Source: the human T2T-CHM13v2.0 reference genome, Homo sapiens
Reading direction: 5' to 3' (one strand)
NCBI RefSeq assembly: GCF_009914755.1
Contig: NC_060936.1
DNA length: 64,000 bases
In this document: positions 2,392-53,076 of the stretch, piece by piece
Layout of the letters: every line of letters begins with the position of its first letter
Position numbering within the stretch: position 1 is the first letter of the stretch
Program-made: the position numbers and the translations under genes
Notes under the pieces: generated by a model
What the model saw: the letters and a program-made list of their open reading frames with translations, nothing else
Databases searched by the model: none
Told to the model about the DNA's origin: nothing

Positions 2392-2856
2392 ATGTGTGTA
2401 TTCTTAAAGTGAAAGTAAGTCTCCTTAAGTAGTATATAGTGTTTTCATTTGTCTGATTTTATCTATTCTTCTGCTATATGGCTTTTGATTAGAGAATTTA
2501 GCCCATTTACTTTAAAGTAATTATAAGTAGGAAAGGACTACTCTCATTTAAATTAATTTTTTGTTTTGTGGTTTTTCTATTTCTTTATTACACTTTTACT
2601 GTCTTTTGTGATTTGATGATTTTCTGTAAAGCTATTCTTTTATTTTTTTATTATTATACTTGAAGTTCTAGAGTACATGTGAACAACCTGCAAGTTTGTT
2701 ACATATGTATACATGTGCCATGTTGATTTGCTGCACCCATTAACTCATCATTTACTTTAGGTATCTATCCTAATGCTATCCCTCCCCCATCCCCCCACCC
2801 CATGACAGGCTCCACTGTGTGATGTTCCCCTTCCTGTGTCCAGGTGTTCTCATTGT

Positions 2857-6681
<3,825 letters not shown>

Positions 6682-6744
6682 TATGATGTTAGCTGGTTAT
6701 TTTGCTCATTAGTTGATGCAGTTTCTTCCTAGCATCAATGGTCT

Positions 6745-7770
6745 TTACAATTTGGCATGTTTTTGCAGTGGCTGGTACTGGTTGTTTCTTTCTATGTTTG
6801 GTGCTTTCTTCAGGAGCTCTTGTATGGCAGGCCTGGTAGTGACAAAATCTCTCAGCATTTGCTTGTCTGCAAAGAATTTTATTTCTCCTTCACTTATGAA
6901 GCTTAGTTTGGCTGGGTATGAAATTCTGGGTTGAAAATTCTTTTCTTTAAGAATGTTGAATATTAGCCCCCACTGTCTTCTGGCTTGTAGAGTTTCTGCT
7001 GACAGATCTGCTATTAGTCTGATGGGCTTCCCTTTGTGGGTAACCCAACCTTTCAGTCTGGCTGCCCTTAACATTTTTTCCTTCATTTCAACTTTGGTGA
7101 ATCTGACAATTATGTGTCTTGGGGTTGCTATTCTCAAGGAGTATCTTTGTGGCATTCTCTGTATTTCCTGAATTTGAATGTTGGCCTGCCTTGCTAGGTT
7201 GGGGAAGTTCTCCTGGATAATATTCTGAAGAGTGTTTTCCTGCTTGGTTTCATTCTCCCCGTGACTTTCAGGTACACCAATCCAATGTAGATTTGGTCTT
7301 TTCACACAGTTCTATATTTCTTGGAGGCTTTGTTTGTTTCTTTTTACTCTTTTTTCCCTAAACTTCTCTTTTCACTTCATTTCATTAATTTGATCTTCAA
7401 TCACTTATACCCTTTCTTCCAGTTGATCGAATTGGCTACTGAAGCTTGTGCATGCATCACGTAGTTCTTGTGCCATGATTTCCAGCTCCATCAGGTCATT
7501 TATGGTCTTCTCTACACTGTGTATTCTAGTTAACCATTCATCTAATCTTTTTTCAAGGTTTTTAGCTTCCTTGTGATGGGTTCGAACATCCTCCTTTAGC
7601 TCGGAGAAGTTTGTTATTACTGACCTTCTGAAGCCTACTTCTGTCAACTCTTCAAAGTCATTTTCCATCCAGTTTTGTTCTGTTGCTGGGGCAGAGCTGT
7701 GATCCTTTGGAGGAGAATAGGTGCTCTGATTTTTAGAATTTTCAGCTCTTCTGCTCTAGTTTCTCCCCAC
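6745..7770 (-). pseudogene. L1 ORF1, start codon mutated to GTG and frameshifted
   Basis: MENDFEEL... and KRPNLHWIGVPE...QPLQKHAKL fragments; gtttctccccac at 7760-7770 where cat (ATG) is expected. Confidence 0.9.
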
Positions 7771-40908: not shown

Positions 40909-43900
40909 TTCCACTGAGGCCTGTTCCTACAAAACTGGCTGCATGGAGGAACGGAGCAGAGTCTATGCTTCCTGCAAGTAGCTGGTTCCCAAAAGGAAGA
41001 GTGGGAGGTAGGAGTTGTTTGAGATGTCCGTGCTCAGTTCTTTCTCCCAAAGCCCCATGGGAAAGAGGGAGTTAGGAAGTTGAGTCAGGCAGGAGGTTTC
41101 TAAGAATAGAACTTCCTTCAGGAGGGGGAAAGACGGATTTCCTTCCAGCAGGATATTATCCGTGTTTAGCACTTTCTCCATCATTTGATTAGTGCCAAAA
41201 GGAAGGCAAGATTTATATAAGGGTAGGAGAAAAGAAGCAACAAAGGCACTAACCCTGGAATATGATTAGAAGTCACCCATGTGGTTCAGTGTAGCTACCA
41301 TCAGGGTACTGCACTGTGGTTTAGGGTTAAAGCCTCAGAGTGATAAGAGGTGTGAATTAGTATGGTCTTGTCACCTCGGTGACCTCTAGAAGGTTGATTT
41401 GTGAAAGGATAGAATGGGGTGTTCAGGGTCTCAGGTTCTTTCCATCTCTTTCTCTATCACCAGCTTTAAATTACAGATACTTGGTAGTCAATGAATGGTC
41501 AGAATTTCTGGATTAAGGGAATAAACTCAGAATTATCATTTAGAAAGAAGGGAGAAAAAAAGCATAAATATTTTTTGGCCTAATATGTTTCAGGAATAAT
41601 ATTGTTTCACAAGTTTTCTTCTTTAATCCTTACAAAAAAAACCTGTGAAGTGAGCATTATTAATTTGGGAAAACTTATACTCAGAAATATTGAGAAATAA
41701 TAAGAGATCGAACCAAGAATTGAACTGAAATTAATATTGTTTGACTTCAAATCCTCCATCTCCAAAACTTCTTTTATACCTCAAATAGGAAGATTAAGCA
41801 GGTATGACCTTTACCCTATAAAATTTCTTTCTAAAATGGATTAATTATAGAGAAAAATATCTTTTCCTTTCTCTATCATCAAATTTCAATACCAAATAAG
41901 TTCTTAGCAAAGCTGAGACTCCCATTGCATGGGGTAGTTTCCATAAGCAAGAAGAATATGGGCTTAACATACTATGTCGTTATATTCAGATTCTAAAAGT
42001 AAAAATCCTATGCCAGTGAGTCACATAGAAGTTTTTGGTCTTTAGCATGAGCAAGGAGCCTAAGCACACAAATGACATCTCTAAAATTCTTAATATTTCT
42101 AGATAACCAAAATTCTAGTTTATATAGCTCATTTTTAGCTGTCCAAATTTCACATTACTATTAAGGAAAAGCAATAAATACAAGATACTCTTCTGAAAAA
42201 CTTTTTCATGTGCTAAAAATCATTCAAAATTCCATATTGCAGTATCATCTTATGCTTTTCCTGCCTTATAAAGAAAATAAAATTAAGCTTTTATGGTAAA
42301 GGTAGCTATCTCTATTTGCATTATAGCTGTTTTACCCTGAAATACTTTTATTCCACAAGAAATTCTCCAATTTATTTTACTAAATTGTTTACATAAAAGC
42401 AAGAATATTTTAGATTAAAAAGTTTAGGAAAATTAAGTTTATTTTTAAAAAGAAGAAAAATATTAATATAATAATTATTAATATTTTATTTTTATTCTAC
42501 TAATAATTTATTACTATAACTTACATTCTCAGAAAACACCCAATAAGACAAATTAATGAGGCAAAGTCCTAAGGATTTTTTTAACGGCCCAGGAAAATGT
42601 TTTTTTGAAAAAACAAACAAAAATGTAAGTCAGGCATAGGTCCAAACACATGATGGGAAGTCAATCTATTCCCATTACAAAATTAGAAAAGCAATGGTTC
42701 ATCCAGTGCCCTATCCCTGATTTTATTTCTCTGACCTGGAAATGAGAAATCATAGAAGTATCAAAAGAGCAGATTGTAGCAAATTAGGAATCAGCTCAAG
42801 CTTCTCTTTACCTGTGACCCGTCTAAACAGAAATCATATTTCAGCTTCCTTCTACCCAACACACACACATCAATCATTGCCAAGAAACATTTTAAGACCA
42901 TCAAGGCCCCAGACACTCCTACTTTTGTTGGTCCCAGCCTACATTATATCAACCATTGAAACACATCCACATTTTGCAAAATTGACATAATTTAATAATA
43001 GTTAACTTTTGGAGAGCTTACTTATTAGCAGTATTGTTCATAATAGTTTATACCTATTTAGTTGTTACAACCATCTTATAAGTGTTAAGTTAATCTACAT
43101 TTCACCCATTGTGAAAAATGACTAAGTAACTTCCCCAGGGTCACATAGCTGGTAAGTAACAACCAGAATTGAAATCCAGTGCGTATTATTCAAAACACCA
43201 TGAACTTACAACTAAGCCCTAGTAATATAATGGTAGATCTATAGGTATTTAAGTAATATTTATGTAATTTTGCAGCTTATTTTCATATTTTGGAGCTGAT
43301 GCATTTTTTCAAGTATTAAAATGTTTCATAGTCCCTTCCATGACAGCATATAGTTCATTTGTTCTGTTCCCAGAGACCCTAGTAAGTAAAACAATAAATA
43401 CATCGTGTTATTTTTACTTACCTGTTTCCCTTTCTAGACTGTCAGTTTTATGTCTCCCAAAGTAGTCAAATGCTTTACACAGAGAAGCACTCATAAGTGT
43501 TTAACAAGGTCAATCTGAAGAGCAGTGATAGACAGGAGAAGAACTTCAACTGAATCAGTTGTTAAAGACAATGATGCAATGATGATACAGCCTGATATTT
43601 GGAAGAGGGAAGTGTAGTAAAGAAATGGCCAATTAATTAATCATGCAGTGATAGGAAAGGAGTGTGGTTATAAAACCAATGGCAGGGAACTCATGCTCCA
43701 AAATCAGACCTAAACATTCAATGGCAGGGCTATATTTAATATTTTCCTAGAGAAATTCAGAAAAAGAACAGATGACTTCAAAGGATTACCAACAGGCAGA
43801 TGATCATAATTAACATCTCTCAAAAGGTTATATATCCCTAACATTTTATTGTCACATCACATGCTTTAAAATTTATATTATTTTAAAAATTTACTGAAAT

Positions 43901-44021
43901 TTTAGTTCATAATTGTATCATGTTATTTATAAGTGTTTCATTGACCCCACGAAATGTTATAAATTAGACTATGGTCTTTTCATGTATTTGAAGCCACATC
44001 TTATATCTTTTTTTAAATTTT

Positions 44022-47000
44022 TTCTCCAGAAGTATCTTTGTGGTGTTCTCTGTATTTCCTGAATTTCAATGTTGGCCTGACTTGCTAGGTTGGGGAAGTT
44101 CTCCTGGATAATATCCTGAAGAATATTTTCCAGCTTGGTTTCATTCTCCCCATCACTTTCAGGTACACCAATCAAGCATAGAGAATACCACAAAGATACT
44201 CCTCAAGAAGAGCAACCCCAAAACACGTAATTGTCAGATTCAACAAGGTTGAAATGAAGGAAAAATTGTTAAGGGCAGCCAGAGAGAAAGATCGGGTTAC
44301 CCACAAAGGGAAGCACATCAGACTAACAGCAGATATCTCAGATGAAACCCTACAAGCTAGAAGAAAGTGGGGGTCAATATTCAACATTTTTAAAGAAAAG
44401 AATTTTCAACCCAGAATTGTATATCCAGCCAAGCTAAGCTTCATAAGCAAAGGATAAATAAAATCTTTTACAGACAAGCAAATGCTGAGAGATTTTCCCA
44501 CCACCAGGCCTGCCTTACAAGAGCTCCTGAAGGAAGCACTAAACATGGAAAGGAACAACCAATACCAGCCACTGCAAAAACATACCAAATTGCAAAGATC
44601 ATCGACACAATGAAGAAACTGCATTAACTAATGGGCAAAATGACCAGCTAACATCATAATGGCAGGATCAAATTCACACATAACAATACTAACCTTAAAT
44701 GTAAATGGACTAAATGCCCCCAATTAAAAGACACAGACTGGCAAACTGGATAAAGAGTCAAGACCTATCAGTGTGATGTATTCAGGAGAACGATTTCACG
44801 TGCAAAGAAACACATAAGCTCAAAATAAAGGGAAGGAGGAATATTTGCCAAACAAATGGAAAGCAAAAAGAAAAAGCAGGGGTCAGAATCCTACTCTCTG
44901 ATAAAACAGACTTTAAGCCAACAAAGATCAAAAGAGACAAAGTAGGGCATTACATAATGGTAAAGGGATCAATGCAAAAAGAAGAGCTAACTATCTTAAA
45001 TATATATGCACCCAATAGAGGAGCACCACATTCATAAAGAAAGTTCTTAGAGACCTACAAAGAGACTTAAACTCCCACACAATAATAGTTGGAGACTTTC
45101 ACACCCCACTGTCAATATTAGACAGATAAATGAGACAGAAAATTAAAAAGGATACCCAAGACTTGAATTCAGCTCTGGACGAAGCAGACCTAACAGACAT
45201 CTACAGAATTCTCCATCTCAAATCAACAGAATATACGTTCTTCTCAGCACCACATTGCACTTATTCTAAAATTGACCACATAATTGGAAGTAAAATACTC
45301 CTCAGCAAATGCAAAAGAATGGATATCATAACAGTCTCTCAGACCACAGTGCAATCAAATTAGAACTCAGGATTAAGAAACTCACTCAAAACCACACAAC
45401 TGCATGGAAACAGAACAACCTGCTCCTGAATGACTACTGGGTAAATAACAAAATGAAGGCAGAAATAAAGATGTTCTTTGAAACCAATGAGAACAAAGAC
45501 TGAATGTACCAGAATCTCTGCGACATATTTAAAGCAGTGTGTAGAGGGAAATGTATAGCACTAAATGTCCACAAGAGAAAGCAGGAAAGATCTGAAATCG
45601 ACACCCTAACATCATAATTAAAAGAACTAGAGAAGCAAGAGCAAACAAATTCAAGAGCTAGCAGAAGACAAGAAATAATTAAGATTAGGGCAAAGCTGAA
45701 GGAGATAGAAACACGCAAAACCCTTCAAAAAAATCAATGATCCAGGAGCTGGCTTTTTGAAAAGATCAACAAAATAGATAGACCTCTAGCCAGACTAATA
45801 AAGAATAAAAGAGAGAAGAATCAAATAGACACAATAAAAAATGATAAAGGGGATATCACCACTAATCCCACAGAAATACAAACTACCAACAGAGAATACT
45901 ATATGCAATACCTCTGTGCAAATAAACTAGAATACCTCTATGCAAATACACTAGCAAATCTAGAAGAAATGAATAAGTTCCTGGACACATATGCCCTCCC
46001 AAGACTAAACTAGGAAGAAGTCGAATCCCTGAATAGACCAATCACAAATTCTGAAATTGAGGCAGCAATGAATAGCCTACCAACCAAAAACAGTCCAGAA
46101 CCAGACAGATTCACATCCGAATTCTACCAGAAGTACAAAGAGGAGCTGGTACCATTCCTTCTGAAACTATTCCAAACAATAGAAAAAGAGGGAATCCTCC
46201 CTGACTCATTTTATGAGGCCAGCATCATCCTGATACTAAAACCTAGCAGAGAAACAGTAAAAAAAGAAAATTTTAGGCTAACGTCCCTGATGAACATCGA
46301 TGCAAAAATCCTCAATAAAATACTGGCAAACCAAATCCAGCAGCATATCAAAAATCTTAATCACCATGATTAAATCTGCTTCATCCCTGGGATGCAAGGC
46401 TGCTTCAACATATGCAAATCAAAAAACATAATCCATCACATAAACAGAAACAATGACAAAAACCACATGTTTCTCTCAATAGCTGCAGAAAAGGCCTTGG
46501 ACAAAATTCAACACCCCTTCATGCTAAAACCTCTCAATAAACTATGTATTGATGGAACCTACTTCAAAACAATAACTGCTATTTATGACAAACCCACAGC
46601 AAATGTCATACTGAATGAGCAAAAACTGGAAACATTCGCTTTGAAAAATGGCAGTAGACAAGGATGCCCTCTTTCAACACTCCTTTTCAACATAGCATTG
46701 GAAGTTCTGGCGAGGGCAATCCAGCAAGAGAAAGAAATAAAGGGGATTCAATTAGGAAAAGAGGAAGTCAAATTGTCTCTGTTTGAAGATGACATGATTG
46801 TACTTTTACAAAACCCCATCATCTCAGCCCAAAATCTCCTTAAACTGATAAGAAACTTCAGCATAGTGTCAGGATACACAATCAATGTGCAAATATCACA
46901 AGCATTCCTGTGGACCAATAACAGATAGCCAAATCATGAGTGAACTCCCATTCACAATTGCTACAAAGAGAATAAAATACCTAGGAATACAACTTACAAG

Positions 47001-48713
47001 GGATGTGAAGGACCTCTTCAAGGAGAACTACAAACCACTGCTGAAGAAAATAAGAGAGGACACAAACAAATGGAAAAACATTCTGTGCTCATGGATAGGA
47101 AGAATCAATATCATGACAATGGCCATACTGCCCAAAGTAATTTATAGATTCAATGCTATCCTTATGAGGCTACCATTGACTTTCTTCACAGAATCAGAAA
47201 AAGGTACTTTACCTTTCATATGGAACCAAAAAAGAGCCCACGTAGCCAAGACAATCCTAAGCCAAAAGAACAAAGCTGGAGGCATCATGCTACCTGACTT
47301 CAAACTATACTACAAGGCAACAGTAACCAGAACAGCATGGTACTGGTACCAAAACAGATGTATAGACCCATGGAACAGAACAGAGGCCTCAGAAATAACA
47401 CCACACATCTATAACCATCCTACCTTTGACAAACCTGACAAAAACAAGCAACAGGGAAAGGATTCCCTATTTAATAAATCGTGTTGAGAAAACTGGCTAA
47501 CCATATTCAGAAAGCTGAAACTATATCCCTTCCTTACACCTTATACAAAAATTAACTCAAGATGGATTAAAGACTTAAATGTTAGACCTAAAACCATAAA
47601 AACCCTAGAAGAAAACCTACACAATACCATTCAGGACATAGGCATGGGCAAGGACTTCACGACTAAAACACCAAAAGCAATGGCAACAAAAGCCAAAATT
47701 GACAAATGGGATCTAATTAAACTAAAGAGCTTCTGCACAGCAAAAGAAACTATCATCAAAGTAAACAGGAAACCTACAGAATGGGAGAAAATGTTTGCAA
47801 TCTATCCATCTGACAAAGGGCTAGTATCCAGAATCTACAAAGAACTTAAACAAATTTACAAGAAAAAAAACAACCACATCAAAAAGTTGGCAAAGGATAA
47901 TAACAGACACATCTCAAAAGAAGACATTTATGCAGCCAACAAACGTATGAAAAAATCTCATCATCACTGGTCATCAGAGAAATGCAAATCAAAACCACAA
48001 TGAGATACCATCTCATGCCAGTTAGAATGGTGATCGTTAAAAAGTCAGGAAACAACAGATGCTGGAGAGGATGTGGAGAAATAGGAACGTTTTTACACTG
48101 TTTGCAGGCGTGTAAATTAGTTCAACCACTGTGGAAGACAGTATGGCATTTCCTCAAGGATTTAGAATTAGAAATACCATTTGACCCAGCAATCCCATTA
48201 CTGGGTATAGACTGAAAGGATTATAAATCATTCTATAAAGACACATGCACATGTATGTTTATTGTGGCACTGTTCACAGTAGCAAAGACTTGGAACCAAT
48301 CCAAATGCCCATCAATGATAAACTGGATAAAGAAAATGTGGCACATATATACCCTGGAATACTATGCAGCCATAGAAAAGGATGAGTTCATGTCCTTTGC
48401 AGGGACATGGATGAAGCTGGAAACCATCATTCTCAGCAAACTAACACAAGAACAGAAAACTAAACACCACATATTTTCTCATAAGTGGGAGTTAAACAAT
48501 AAGAACACATGGACACAGGGAGCGGAACATCACACACTGGGGCCTGTTGGGGGTGGAGGGCTACAGGAGGGATAGCTTTAGGAGAAATACCTAATCTAAA
48601 TGACGGGTTGATGGGTGCAGCAAACCAAACCACCATGGCACGTGTATACCTATGTAACAAACCTGCACGTTCTGCATGTGTACCCCAGAACTTAAAGTAT
48701 AATAGTAAAAAAA
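44022..48713 (+). mobile_element. L1PA7-like element, 5'-truncated with a 5' inversion (44022-44179 on -)
   Basis: ORF1 segment LIGVPESDGENETKLENILQDIIQENFPNL on -, followed by + strand ORF1/ORF2 fragments and a 3'UTR ending ccagaacttaaagtataat. Confidence 0.93.
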
Positions 48714-49170
<457 letters not shown>

Positions 49171-49247
49171 CTAGTTAATTAATTTATTTAAAACATTGAG
49201 CCTGAAAACTTTAATTTTATATTATGCAGTCATTAAAATCATTTTTT

Positions 49248-49587
49248 AAAAGTTGATCTTATAGAAGTAGAGAGAACAGTGGCCACCAAAGCTGGGAAAG
49301 TAGAGTGGAGTGGGAAAGAGAAGAGGTTGGTCAATGGGCATAAAGCTGTATCTAGGTAGGAGGAACAAGCTCTGGAGCTCTGCTGCACAGCGTGGAGAAC
49401 ATAGTCAAAGACAGTGCACCATACCCTTCAGAGTAGCCAGAAAAGAGGACCCTGAGTGGTCTTAGCACAAAGAAAGGATAAGGTAATGGACATGAGGCAA
49501 TGGACATGCCAGTCACCCCAATCTGGTCACCATACAATGTATACATGGATTGAAATGCCACATGGCACTCCATGAGCATGCACAATT
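49248..49587 (+). mobile_element. L1MA-type 3' end, left arm of an inverted pair, hypermutated
   Basis: aaagttgatcttatagaagtagagag...ggaggaacaagctct...cacaaagaaa...catgcacaatt. Confidence 0.8.
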
Positions 49588-49594
49588 TTTTGCT

Positions 49595-50105
49595 TGTATT
49601 TTTAATTGATAGATAATAATTGTACATATTTATGGAGCACAGCCTGATAATACATACAACATGCAATGACCAACTCTAGGCAACCAGCACATTCATCACC
49701 CTAAACCCCTATCACCTCCCCATGTTGGGAATACCCAAAATCTGTTCCCCCATCCTCTGGAAAATACATGGTAAAATGTCATTAAGTATAGTCAACCCAC
49801 AGTGCCATAGAACACAAGAACCCATTCCTCCCATCCAGCTGCAACACTGCATCTACCAGCCACCCTCTGACCACCTCTCTTTCCCCTTTACCACCTCTCC
49901 TTCCTACCTACCCATCCCATCCTCTAGTAACCACTATTCTACTCTCTACTTCTATGAGATGAACCCCTTTAGCTTTCATATATGAGTGAGAACATGTGGT
50001 ATTTGTCTTTCTATGCCTGGCGTATTTCACCTCCAAGCTCATCCATGTTGCCTCAAATGACAGAATTTCATTCTTTTTTGTGGCTGAATACTATTCCATT
50101 ACCTA
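49595..50105 (-). mobile_element. L1MA-type 3' end, right arm of the inverted pair
   Basis: tttttaattgatagataataattgtacatatttatgg...ctctctacttctatgagat...atgagtgagaacatg...ggctgaatactattccatt. Confidence 0.88.
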
Positions 50106-50419
50106 TATCTTTTGAATTTAGAAGGTAATGTTAGAAATATTTTGGTTACTTTGTTAGAGGAGTCAGTGAAATTCAATAACTAAATCAATTCAAAAAATAT
50201 TTACTAAGCTATAACTATGTGCTTATCATTAGCACAGAAGTAGGGAAATATACTTCTTACTATTTCAATGAGTGAAAATAAATGTATATTCCATTTAGTA
50301 AAATAGCAATGTTGAGCAACATACCATTACTATTCATATGAGTGATATAGAAAATAAGGACCATAAAGGAATGATTATCAGTCTGGAGTGAAATCATTAG
50401 GAAAGATTCCCCTCGACAG

Positions 50420-50670
50420 AGCAACATTTAAGTATTTTTAAGCATGTGAATTTTAAAGTCCTAAAGACCTGGGTCCATACCAATACCCACCATCTGTTTT
50501 CTTTGTGACTTTGTGACAGTTACCTCGTATCTCAAACCTCAGTTTCCTCACCCATCAAAGAAAAATGATAGTCACTTTTTGAGTAATGGTGAAGATTCAA
50601 ATGAGACAATTATTGCAGAGCACCCAATACAGGGTCAGTCTCATTCTAACTTATCTAACTCATTAATGAT
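50420..50670 (+). mobile_element. MIR
   Basis: Core agacctgggt...ctttgtgactttg...cctcagtttcctcaccc. Confidence 0.7.
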
Positions 50671-51736
50671 GTTGTCATAAGAGTCAAAGTAGTAATCGTT
50701 GGTGTAGTCACAATCTTAGTTGTAGTACGAGTCATGATACTCATAACAGTAATTGCCTGAGTTGTGGTACAGTATCAACAAAGAGTAGAGGAGAGAATAC
50801 TCTAATGGTGGCAACAGGATGAACAGAGATTAGGAAACAATTACAAGTGTTTTATTTTTAGATCAATGAGATTACCTAGTTAAAGTGTTTAAATGATTGG
50901 AGAGTAGTGGGAAATAAAACTGTATAAGTAATTAAGGATAAATTGCAAATTATTAAGGCCCATAATTTTTTTCTTTGTTGGGATGAGAGTGAGTGAGTAA
51001 TCACCCATTACCCTTAACAATTTTTGGTTGACATTGTGATGCACATACCTGGCTGGATACGATAGAGAGTCGGATATTATCTTGAACTGAATAAAAAGAA
51101 TAGAGTATTGTGGTGTATTTTTTGTTCTCTATCATTAAGTAGTCAAAAGAATAAGAAATAACCCAAAGTAATTTAGGCTTAGTATGCAGGGATACTCTCA
51201 ACCCTTTGGAAGGGCCTTGGCAAGTATTTCCTATTATTATTCATGATATCTCCAAATCTCCTTTGGTTCAAAAAGGTTTCTGAGGGGGAAAATAATCTGT
51301 AAAAAAGCAAGGTTCACAGGGAGCTGAAAGTGTCTAGCCTAGTTAACAAGTAACTTTATGCAAAATAACTTTCACAGTAATAAGGAGCTTTCAAATGCAG
51401 CCAGCAGTGGTTTGGTTGCCATGCTACCAAAAGTAAGCTCCAGTGTGTTTTCAGTTATTTTTGCTTTGGAAGTATTTTGTGCCATGTGTGCTCCAAGGAA
51501 GAACCAGGCAGTCAAGCCTGGGCTGGGTTGTTTAGTCCTCTGGGAAAAGAAGAAATGAGCAGATCACTGCCCAGGGGAACAGGGCTCATTAGCAGACAAA
51601 GTTGACAGGTGTTTGCTCTCTGAAAAGAGCAGTAGCTGTAGAAAAACTCAGCCGTGGTGGTTTTCTATAACATAAAAGCTGTTAGTGCAAGGAAGAGTGG
51701 GGGGAGACAGAGCAGGCTGAGAAGGCAGCATACAAA

Positions 51737-51847
51737 TAGGATATCCAAATATGCCTATTTGTGTGGGACTAAATGTTTCTAGGCACGTGGGACTTTCAGT
51801 TTTAAAACAGGGACAGTCCTGGACAAATTGGGATAGTGGTCATCCTA
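51737..51847. mobile_element. MER81-like hAT-Blackjack miniature element
   Basis: TAGG...CCTA termini; gggactttcagttttaaaacagggacagtcctggacaaa core. Confidence 0.8.
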
Positions 51848-53076
51848 AGAACAAACTCAGCCTATTTTCTGTGCAGACTAAAAGGCCATATACAACTCTT
51901 TACTAGACACAAAAGTACCAGCAGAGTACAGACACAATGCACCAACCTTGTGCTTAAACCACAAGCCATCAATGTGTAAAATCATAAATGGTCCATCCAA
52001 AGTCCCCAGTTGCTTCCTGCAAGTGAATAGAAAGATATTTATTATTTAACAAATATAAATACTGATGAGTAGTAATGAAGGTGAGACAATATTCAAGAAC
52101 ATAACAATGTTTGGTCTTAGAACGTTCTTGATCTTAACAAAATTGCCCTCAATCACTGCTTCCCAAGTTACTGAGAGTGACTCAGTTTTCCTTTTTTCCT
52201 TTCTCAACAGGAAAGCTACCCCTCCTTCAGCAGGACTATGAAAGCAGTACTTTATTTGCTAAACTAGGAAGCTGCCCTACAGCTGTCACCTTCAGAACCA
52301 GCCACTTCTGCCATGTTCTATACCTTCAAAGTGGCTATTTCCAAATTGCTTCTCTTTTCATAGAACAAATTCCTGACTCAAAGTTTTGCTTGAGATCATC
52401 TAGTTGGTGAAACTTCAGTCATATATGAAACCCTAACTGCAAGGTAGTCTAAGAAATGTGTGAGCTTCTGCATGCTCTTTGGTGTTGGAAGGCATTTCAG
52501 TTGAGCCAATCCGCAGCTTGCACCAATGCCTTTACTTCGGTTTTCCATAGTTACACAAATAGTCAAAAACATGCATTGTAATTTGAGTAGATCCATTTTG
52601 AGATAATGGAATCCTCAGGTCATTTTATTTAAATAAGAGAGGTTCTTATCCTAAGCATATTCTAAAATAATTCTTTTGCTTGGTGCTAGTGTGTTTTCAT
52701 GAGTTGCGAGGGGCAGAAGCAGCTAAAATTCTCCATGATATATTACGTTTTTGGTGACTTCAGTGATCATCTTCCCCCTCTCTATTTGGTTGAACTTTGA
52801 ATACGTCAAATCCAAATTTAGGTAGAGGTCAGGCCTTCTGGAAAACAATAACACATTCCTAGTAACCATAGACATTTGCTACTGGTAAGCAAAAACTCAA
52901 GAAAAGAAAACACAATTGTCTGTGGTTAAGTGGAAAGTTTTCACATTGTCCAAAGAGCTTTTCAATTCTTTGACTAGGCAATTGCCTTGTTAGAGACATC
53001 GCTCTAAAGAAAGAACAGAATGATTTCTTTTTTTTTCTGAGAAAATGAAGACCATCATGGTGATGGAGAAAAGTGA

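What the first reader, a model, noticed from the sequence alone, without database searches (positions are those of the whole stretch)
49248..49972. Tail-to-tail L1 hairpin whose stem carries an ADAR-like A>G hypermutation imprint in genomic DNA
Seen: two L1MA-type 3' ends form an inverted repeat (arms about 49248-49587 and 49618-49970, loop about 30 nt), and their differences are strongly directional. Left GGAGGAACAAGCTCT (49359-49373) versus the reverse complement of 49817-49831, GGAGGAATGGGTTCT, differs at 4 sites, all C/T or A/G in the same sense. Left 49497-49533 versus reverse-complemented 49663-49699 differs at 18 sites: 14 in that sense, 2 opposite, 2 transversions. Against the recalled L1MA consensus, both arms gained many T>C on + (A>G on -), often at TA and TT. 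The loop and the unpaired continuation (about 49975-50105) look consensus-like. A minus-strand RNA would keep pairing through G-U wobbles, while a plus-strand RNA would have A-C mismatches. Established: ADAR deaminates A in long dsRNA, prefers a 5' U or A neighbour, and reads as A>G. Inference: this could be edited RNA copied back into the locus, adenosine deamination of a DNA hairpin or RNA:DNA hybrid, or selection on the duplex. Caveat: the left arm also has some A>G on + (e.g. 49574, 49576), so bidirectional action or GC-biased conversion may contribute. No flanking TSD or poly(A) of a retro-copy was seen.
Basis: partly seen in the sequence, partly recalled or inferred. Interest (0 to 1): 0.88.

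Follow-up and report, generated by a model that had tools for sequence, protein, structure and literature searches.

The report
RNA-editing fossil in a LINE-1 insertion
Two old LINE-1 fragments that face each other in human DNA have more than a third of one strand's A bases changed to G, only where they pair, likely because the enzyme ADAR edited this hairpin as RNA before it was copied into the germline genome, which would make it a rare fossil of RNA editing turned heritable.

Summary
Against a profile built from paralogous human L1MA-type copies, the right arm has A>G at 39 of 107 A sites and the left arm T>C at 33 of 88 T sites (both are A>G on the minus strand; 56 paralogs 4.5% and 5.8%). 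The unpaired part of the same right element has 0 of 50. Edits favour a 5' U/A neighbour (59/113 against 13/69). CpG decay and GC-biased conversion are refuted. The arms follow two different subfamilies.

One 10-mer lies at 44002 and 50104 and nowhere else in the window. A T-rich tract abuts the first copy. A younger L1PA, an Alu and a chr1-derived transduction (44022-49188) split the tail from the hairpin. The 10-mer match has a 1-4% chance level.

Best reading (0.75): an L1MA read-through RNA folded on a neighbouring antisense L1MA, was hyper-edited by ADAR and was retrotransposed here long ago. No source, sibling or orthologue could be shown. A smaller plus-strand A>G excess in the left arm is unexplained. 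Ten literature searches showed no such germline case for L1.

The parts
44002..44011 (.). Candidate left target-site duplication (TATATCTTTT)
   Evidence: The 10-mer occurs at 44002 and 50104 only in the 64-kb window; longest match among 9 junction pairs
44012..44021 (-). T-rich tract on +, likely the decayed poly(A) tail of a minus-strand insertion
   Evidence: Sequence; role inferred
44022..44182 (-). 5'-inverted piece of the later L1PA-type insertion
   Evidence: 90% identical to the other long L1 of the window, in inverted orientation
44180..48713 (+). Body of the later L1PA-type element; no A>G or T>C skew
   Evidence: 86.4% identical over 4582 columns to the L1 at 2643-7160; transitions balanced in all ten 500-column bins; family name recalled
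48714..49045 (+). Alu (AluY-like, recalled) inserted in the L1PA tail, with an (AAT)n tail
   Evidence: Sequence; matches to other Alus
49046..49188 (+). Piece copied from chr1, likely the 3' transduction of the L1PA; its last ~9 nt are low-complexity and may be tail or TSD
   Evidence: 93% over 143 nt to G000:C1:232113032-232113174, the only other hit of 2 candidates
49189..49247 (-). 59 nt of non-L1 sequence, likely the 3' end of the retrotransposed RNA; ATTAAA at 49215-49210 on the minus strand, about 21 nt before the T-rich tract ending at 49188
   Evidence: Motif position; none of 21 other genome hits covers it; role inferred, region is AT-rich
49248..49590 (+). Left arm: L1MA-type 3' end, subfamily B, lacking its last ~15 nt and any tail; T>C at 33 of 88 strict sites (49277-49581)
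   Evidence: follows subfamily B at 16 of 20 diagnostic sites
49586..49614 (-). Loop: 3' terminus and A-rich tail of the right element
   Evidence: Paralog matches reach 49585-49586; similar tails in paralogs
49615..49968 (-). Right arm: paired part of an L1MA-type 3' end, subfamily A; A>G at 39 of 107 strict sites (49638-49967)
   Evidence: follows subfamily A at 16 of 20 diagnostic sites
49969..50100 (-). Unpaired 5' continuation of the right element, unedited; clear L1 homology ends at 50100
   Evidence: A>G 0 of 50; boundary
50104..50113 (.). Candidate right target-site duplication, followed by GA (TTTT/GA, an L1 endonuclease-type site by recalled consensus)
   Evidence: 5 of its 10 nt are also in register with the L1 profile

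Best explanation
The hairpin carries a one-strand, stem-restricted A-to-G excess, and is likely a retrotransposed copy of an RNA that ADAR hyper-edited before L1 machinery inserted it here. Steps. (1, shown) Two L1MA-type 3' ends of different subfamilies lie tail to tail; their subfamily majorities are 94% identical over 342 nt. (2, inferred) At a source locus an active subfamily-A element sat antisense in the tail of a truncated subfamily-B relic; its transcript read through the relic and 59 nt more and was polyadenylated after an ATTAAA. (3, inferred from the signature) The 3' end folded into a ~340-bp duplex and ADAR deaminated roughly 40% of the adenosines on both arms. (4, inferred) Target-primed reverse transcription read inosine as G, stopped about 510 nt into the L1 and left a 10-nt TSD. 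(5, partly shown) A younger L1PA with a chr1 transduction, then an Alu, landed in the tail and separated it from the hairpin. The product is probably a neutral fossil.
For: Strand and stem restriction: 39/107 and 33/88 against 0/50 outside the stem and 3/87 for the opposite change in the right arm (repeated). The edited strand is the sense strand of the longer element, the one that extends beyond the stem. 5' neighbours: U 31/66, A 28/47, C 7/35, G 6/34; U/A against C/G p=9e-6, ratio about 2.8 where paralogs show about 1.4, in line with ADAR1's 5' U>A>C>G and with 40-50% conversion of long duplexes (PMC11019741, passages). One 10-mer at both predicted ends, abutting a T-rich tract on the left and 3 nt from the end of L1 homology on the right; background 0.12-0.39% per 30-nt window (68 and 21 of 17504), 9 junction pairs tried. 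No duplication of the left arm's end follows the right element (longest match 5 nt) and the left arm lacks its own 3' end and tail, as expected of a copy and not of two insertions made here. Old event: at strict sites where an edit would create CpG, 0 of 31 are CpG now and 4 of 31 show the edit-then-decay double change, against 39 of 1633 in paralogs (p=0.006). The intervening L1PA shows no skew. Among 62 inverted-pair alignments in about 324 kb this pair is the most directional.
Against: No source locus, sibling copy or match to the 59-nt piece was found (these scored 40 of 6643, 40 of 255, 40 of 194, 38 of 38 and 22 of 22 candidates). The TSD is AT-rich, was found after the fact, has a 1-4% chance level after 9 tries, and half of its right copy may be L1 sequence. 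Tail remnants and ATTAAA lie in AT-rich DNA and prove little alone; no clear TSD of the L1PA could be fixed (best match 6 nt). The 3' G preference of ADAR is not seen (G 14/35, C 17/33, A 21/49, U 20/65; p=0.23) and 5' A slightly exceeds 5' U. The left arm keeps a plus-strand A>G excess (14/110, p=5e-4) and the arms share a short derived patch near 49410-49421 / 49769-49780; one round of editing explains neither. Editing is patchy: 1 of 21 A sites over profile positions 171-250 of the right arm. In cell assays L1 RNA was not found edited by ADAR1 or ADAR2 and new Alu inserts showed no editing (PMC5224506, PMC8677026, PMC3415434; passages), though those RNAs were not described as carrying such a hairpin.
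Confidence: 0.75

Rival explanations
1. Edits were written in at this locus: an edited minus-strand transcript templated repair of its own gene region, or ADAR deaminated the DNA strand of a hairpin or RNA:DNA hybrid, once or repeatedly.
For: ADARs deaminate dA in DNA/RNA hybrids in vitro with their usual sequence preferences (PMC5389660, abstract); a reverse-transcription route for ADAR mutations in cancer genomes has been argued (PMC11817618, abstract). Repeated or two-way action could account for the left arm's plus-strand A>G. No source locus was found.
Against: Does not explain the 10-mer pair with its T-tract, the missing TSD of the right element beside the hairpin, or the left arm's missing tail. 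Ongoing write-back should leave fresh CpGs; 0 of 31. An R-loop would not stop at the stem boundary (0/50). Other inverted pairs in fetched loci, L1M pairs among them, show no comparable one-way skew. No minus-strand gene is annotated here (hub table).
Confidence: 0.09
2. Same editing and retrotransposition, but the RNA was a piece of a host transcript that held both relics and was mobilised in trans, or the insertion's ends are other than the TSD proposed.
For: The signature and a TSD would look the same; no source element is on hand. L1 mobilises cellular RNAs in trans (PMC9148063, passages).
Against: The 5' end falls inside the L1 as in ordinary truncation, and the same paper notes a strong cis preference. 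The right arm is no more diverged at non-A sites (30/214) than its paralogs (mean 17%), while the left arm at non-T sites (44/240) is at the top of its set (mean 13.7%, maximum 18.6%), as expected if the right element was young and the left already a relic; this is modest evidence.
Confidence: 0.11
3. GC-biased gene conversion, mismatch repair between arms in a DNA hairpin, or transcription-associated mutation bias.
For: Left arm shows both T>C and some A>G; a short patch is shared between arms.
Against: A>C and T>G are at background in both arms (1/110, 4/88, 2/107, 3/87); the right arm is strand-asymmetric (39/107 against 3/87, p=5e-9); A>G sites of the two arms coincide no more than chance (odds ratio 1.0), so conversion or compensation does not drive them.
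Confidence: 0.03
4. CpG decay, an unrecognised subfamily, alignment bias or an assembly error.
For: CpG decay does make an inverted Alu pair in locus L028 look directional arm against arm (36 against 14). About 7 of the left arm's A>G calls were subfamily differences.
Against: Only 4 of 39 right and 3 of 33 left edits lie in CA or TG context; the derived base averages 5-7% (at most 15%) among paralogs; a second alignment method gives the same result. None of 11 further copies shows the skew. Edit-then-decay doubles point to old genomic changes, not read errors.
Confidence: 0.02

Closest known systems
APOBEC-edited retroelements fixed in vertebrate genomes (Knisbacher and Levanon 2015, PMC4866542, passages; Carmi et al. 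2011, not held, recalled)
   Same: A deaminase-hypermutated intermediate integrates and is inherited; seen as a strand-biased cluster of one change with an enzyme motif.
   Different: Those are G>A on cDNA of LTR elements; the screen focused on LTRs and G>A and reports other mismatch types as very rare. Here A>G, in a non-LTR element, limited to a duplex.
ADAR-hypermutated avian retroviruses (Rous-associated virus, avian leukosis virus; Felder 1994, Hajjar and Linial 1995, as summarised in PMC12925331, passage)
   Same: Nearly 50% of A to G in an inverted-repeat region, passed through reverse transcription into DNA.
   Different: Retroviruses in infected cells, not an L1 product fixed in the germline; the originals were not read.
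Hyper-edited (ultra-edited) human RNAs (PMC3197674, PMC4365171; passages)
   Same: Dense A>G in inverted repeats with 5' G depletion.
   Different: There the change is in RNA only, against an unedited genome; here it is in the reference DNA. Their 3' G enrichment is not seen here.
L1 3' transduction (established knowledge, recalled)
   Same: Sense L1 3' end, then flanking sequence, poly(A) and TSD; 5' truncation.
   Different: The transduced flank is an antisense L1 relic that pairs with the element's own 3' UTR and carries an editing imprint; source not found.

Membership tests
ADAR hyper-editing signature | A>G excess on one strand with other changes at background | tested here: met
   39/107 and 33/88; transversions, G>A and C>T not raised. 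Exception: left arm plus-strand A>G 14/110.
ADAR hyper-editing signature | Confined to a long duplex | tested here: met
   0/50 in the unpaired part of the same element, p=2e-8; subfamily majorities 322/342 identical
ADAR hyper-editing signature | 5' neighbour U/A favoured, G disfavoured | tested here: met
   U 47%, A 60%, C 20%, G 18%; G against the rest p=0.0035; 5' C may be undercounted through CpG decay
ADAR hyper-editing signature | 3' neighbour G favoured | tested here: inconclusive
   G 40%, C 52%, A 43%, U 31%; p=0.23
ADAR hyper-editing signature | Dependence on ADAR activity | not testable with these tools
   Ancient event; needs a reconstruction in cells
L1-mediated insertion (TPRT) | Target-site duplication | tested here: met
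   10-mer at 44002 and 50104 only; 1-4% chance level after 9 junction pairs; supportive, not proof
L1-mediated insertion (TPRT) | Poly(A) tail and signal at the 3' end | tested here: inconclusive
   Two 10-nt A-rich remnants on the minus strand (7 of 10 A each) either side of the later L1PA; ATTAAA about 21 nt upstream; AT-rich context
L1-mediated insertion (TPRT) | Endonuclease-type target site | tested here: met
   TTTT/GA at 50110-50115; consensus recalled, motif common in AT-rich DNA
L1-mediated insertion (TPRT) | Empty site in an outgroup genome | not testable with these tools
   No relatives of this genome are held
L1 3' transduction | Source element carrying the same flank elsewhere | tested here: inconclusive
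   None found in five limited searches; old sources may be lost or unscored
APOBEC-edited retroelement | G>A excess on the sense strand | tested here: not met
   G>A 4/58 and 2/56, C>T 4/26 and 3/26, at or below background
GC-biased gene conversion tract | Strand-symmetric weak-to-strong changes including A>C and T>G | tested here: not met
Known structured RNA family | Rfam match | tested here: not met
   0 matches at gathering score in 43000-52000

The most novel reading that the evidence does not exclude
The edits were written back at this very locus: ADAR-edited RNA templated changes in its own germline DNA, or ADAR acted on the DNA strand, so RNA editing rewrote a chromosome in place without a new insertion. 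The TSD would then be a chance match and the left arm's plus-strand A>G a trace of action in the other direction.
Probability: 0.09. Interest if true: 0.93.

Novelty: new variant of a known kind. Interest (0 to 1): 0.74.

Why it matters
If the best reading holds, an inosine-rich RNA survived, stayed with L1 proteins and was reverse transcribed into the germline. That is a direct route from A-to-I editing to heritable DNA. It qualifies the cell-culture reports that L1 RNA is bound but not edited by ADARs: read-through L1 RNAs that fold back can be edited heavily and still insert. It preserves one ancient ADAR reaction on a single molecule, with its neighbour preference. It also gives a simple genome-wide test: look in any assembly for inverted repeat pairs inside one TSD with stem-restricted one-strand A>G. 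Such copies would be misdated or left unmasked by repeat annotation (the hub's list of longest masked stretches stops at 49053) and could pass for accelerated or GC-converted regions. The locus itself is probably without function.

Tried and rejected
Source or sibling search: whole element (best other hit 71% over 500 nt), left arm (best 69% full length), loop junction (no hit spans both arms beyond 12 nt), edited right arm (two best hits show no skew), left junction, right flank 50110-53000 (only short repeat hits). A degenerate pattern for other tail-to-tail L1MA ends returned 378 sites; the listed ones were mostly AT-rich simple repeats, so it was uninformative. No genome-wide screen was possible. 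Local fold-back duplication rejected: the arms follow different subfamilies. Inter-arm conversion as main cause rejected. Editing of the intervening L1PA rejected. L028 looked like a second case arm against arm but is CpG decay in Alus. Folding: minus strand -326.7 kcal/mol (z -9.5), plus strand -234.7 (z -2.4), 20 shuffles each; this follows from G-U pairing and is not independent evidence. Rows dropped: the first profile used 20 of 29 copies (9 interrupted or truncated left out); spectra kept copies with enough aligned stem sites (27 or 26 of 29; 54 or 56 of 58; 49 of 58). Set B paralogs were found with the edited left arm as query, which can only raise the control's T>C rate. No Dfam library was on hand; the names L1MA, L1PA and AluY are recalled. 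Carmi et al. 2011 (Nat Commun) is not held. No supplementary files were read.

Full report
Observation. Aligning 49150-49602 with the reverse complement of 49603-50150 shows the inverted pair. To set the direction of the differences I fetched human paralogs: 29 loci hit by the whole element (set A) and 29 hit by the left arm (set B), and built majority profiles in scripts. The arms cover profile positions 166-507, that is 49248-49590 on + and about 49615-49968 on -, and the right element runs on unpaired to about 50100. Family names (L1MA, L1PA, AluY) are recalled; no repeat library was on hand.

Spectrum. At strict sites (both majorities agree, at least 75% of copies) the right arm has A>G at 39 of 107 and T>C at 3 of 87; the left arm has T>C at 33 of 88 and A>G at 14 of 110; 56 paralogs pool to 4.5% A>G and 5.8% T>C. 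The unpaired part of the right element has 0 of 50. A>C, T>G, G>A and C>T are not raised in either arm. A MAFFT alignment with leave-one-out majorities (49 paralogs) gives 38/110 and 31/84, with paralog maxima of 11% and 16%. Both excesses are A>G on the minus strand, the sense strand of the right element. Only 4 of 39 and 3 of 33 edits lie in CA or TG context, and the derived base averages 5-7% in paralogs, so CpG decay is out. The asymmetry in the right arm (p=5e-9) and the lack of weak-to-strong transversions rule out GC-biased conversion as the main cause.

Enzyme signature. Read on the minus strand, edits by 5' neighbour are U 31/66, A 28/47, C 7/35, G 6/34 (U/A against C/G p=9e-6; paralogs 6.3, 5.3, 3.9 and 4.6%). 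By 3' neighbour there is no significant pattern (p=0.23). Bass's review gives ADAR1 5' U>A>C>G, 3' G>C~A>U, and 40-50% conversion for perfect duplexes above about 50 bp (PMC11019741, passages). The 5' rule and the level fit; the 3' G preference is not seen. The two subfamily majorities are 322 of 342 identical over the stem, so the ancestral duplex was long and nearly perfect. Today the minus strand folds better than the plus strand (-326.7 against -234.7 kcal/mol), a consequence of G-U pairs.

Two elements, not a fold-back. Of 20 sites that separate the subfamily majorities, the left arm follows B at 16 and the right arm follows A at 16. The loop is the right element's own terminus and A-rich tail. 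The left arm stops about 15 nt short of its 3' end and has no tail. Had the right element inserted here into the left one, the left arm's end should be repeated beyond 50100; the longest match is 5 nt.

The displaced ends. Left of the hairpin lie 59 nt without a match among 21 other genome hits, then 143 nt that are 93% identical to a single chr1 locus. On chr1 that piece begins at a TT/AAGA step with no L1 before it; in the window it follows the tail of an L1PA (44022-48713, 5'-inverted at 44022-44182) into which an Alu has inserted. I read it as a 3' transduction from a source L1 that CHM13 does not hold at that site (inference). Just left of this L1PA is a T-rich tract preceded by TATATCTTTT at 44002; the same 10-mer recurs at 50104, 3 nt past the end of L1 homology, and nowhere else in the window. 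In other fetched loci a 30-nt window shares a 10-mer with these junctions in 68 and 21 of 17504 cases; with 9 junction pairs tried the chance level is about 1-4%. Five of the ten bases of the right copy are in register with the L1 profile, which weakens it as a free match but resembles the 5' microhomology known from truncated L1s (recalled). The right copy is followed by GA, giving TTTT/GA. On the minus strand an ATTAAA lies at 49215-49210, about 21 nt before a second T-rich tract ending at 49188. Removing the L1PA block in thought leaves the layout of a minus-strand insertion: TSD, truncated L1, antisense relic, short flank with signal, tail, TSD. The tail remnants and the signal are weak evidence in AT-rich DNA, and the L1PA's own TSD could not be fixed.

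Age. At strict sites where an edit makes a CpG, none of 31 is CpG now and 4 show the double change expected from editing followed by decay (paralogs 39 of 1633; p=0.006). The arms hold 1 and 0 CpGs in all, the Alu 13. The L1PA shows no skew in any bin. This fits one old event, before the L1PA; it is not a date.

Controls. Among 62 inverted-pair alignments in about 324 kb (window and loci, CpG-type mismatches left out) this pair ranks first (37 against 14, p=0.002); the next is a small repeat in L056 (0 against 8). Eleven further L1MA copies show no skew. An inverted Alu pair in L028 looks directional through CpG decay alone, so arm-against-arm asymmetry is not diagnostic without a profile.

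Against the reading. No source or sibling was found in five searches that scored only part of the candidates in three cases. The left arm's plus-strand A>G (14/110, p=5e-4; 9 of the 14 precede a T) has no counterpart in the right arm; A>G sites of the two arms coincide at chance level (odds ratio 1.0). The left arm is also among the most diverged of its set at non-T sites (44/240; mean 13.7%, maximum 18.6%), which fits a relic older than the event but does not explain the bias. A short derived patch is shared by both arms around 49410-49421 and 49769-49780 while a subfamily site inside it still differs. Editing is patchy along the stem. No orthologues could be examined.

Mechanism. Shown: strand- and stem-restricted A>G with ADAR's 5' rule, two subfamilies, the 10-mer pair, the unedited L1PA block with its chr1 piece. 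Inferred: editing at the RNA stage, read-through from an active L1MA, insertion by target-primed reverse transcription, the order of later insertions. I give 0.75 to this, 0.11 to the same process with a host RNA mobilised in trans or with other ends, 0.09 to write-back in place (ADAR can edit DNA in hybrids, PMC5389660, abstract; PMC11817618, abstract), and 0.05 to conversion or artefact.

Comparison with print. Genomic deaminase fossils are described for APOBEC in LTR elements; that screen looked at G>A in LTRs and found other types very rare (PMC4866542, passages; PMC2873906, passages). ADAR hypermutation that reached DNA is reported for avian retroviruses (PMC12925331, passage). An A>G excess in a mouse provirus was judged to lack the ADAR context (PMC12548423, passages). 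ADAR1 and ADAR2 bind L1 RNPs, but no editing was found in the half of L1 RNA sequenced (PMC5224506, PMC8677026; passages), and 52,039 bp of new Alu inserts showed none (PMC3415434, passages). Hyper-edited RNAs are well mapped (PMC3197674, PMC4365171; passages). Ten searches (nine aimed at prior cases, one at ADAR preferences; for most hits I saw only the listing and the start of the abstract) showed no report of a germline-fixed ADAR-hyperedited L1 insertion. The library lacks most subscription papers, and Carmi et al. 2011 was not held, so this is not proof of novelty. Rfam gives no match.

Verdict. A real and strong signal, best read as a fossil of ADAR hyper-editing carried into the germline by L1. 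New variant of a known kind; interest 0.74, limited by being one locus without orthologues.

Noticed in passing
window 49046-49188 and L067 (G000:C1:232113032-232113174): A 143-nt piece of chr1 (93% identical) follows the L1PA tail; the chr1 site starts at an endonuclease-like step and holds no L1 there, so the source element seems absent from CHM13. On chr1 an Alu with a clear TSD sits at the end of the same piece.
   Followed up: partly
window 44022-44215: The L1PA is 5'-inverted, and about 30 nt of L1 sequence appear in both the inverted and the forward part, making a small hairpin around the junction (3 against 11 directional mismatches, p=0.06).
   Followed up: partly
L056:1498-1845 (G000:C8, near 19631173-19631401): An L1MA copy with T>C 15/93 against A>G 5/111 at strict sites, clustered in its middle, with an Alu inserted in it; the highest of the paralogs, but found with the edited left arm as query, so possibly ascertainment.
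   Followed up: partly
L056:396-606: A small inverted repeat whose non-CpG transitions all run one way (0 against 8, p=0.008 before correction for 62 tests).
   Followed up: no
L028:2065-2894: An inverted Alu pair with directional differences that are CpG decay; a useful negative control for this kind of finding.
   Followed up: yes
window 2643-7160 and 44180-48713: Two long L1PA-type elements in opposite orientation, 86% identical, 37 kb apart; no skew between them.
   Followed up: yes
L051:871-1404: A long self-complementary low-complexity stretch giving many overlapping inverted hits.
   Followed up: no
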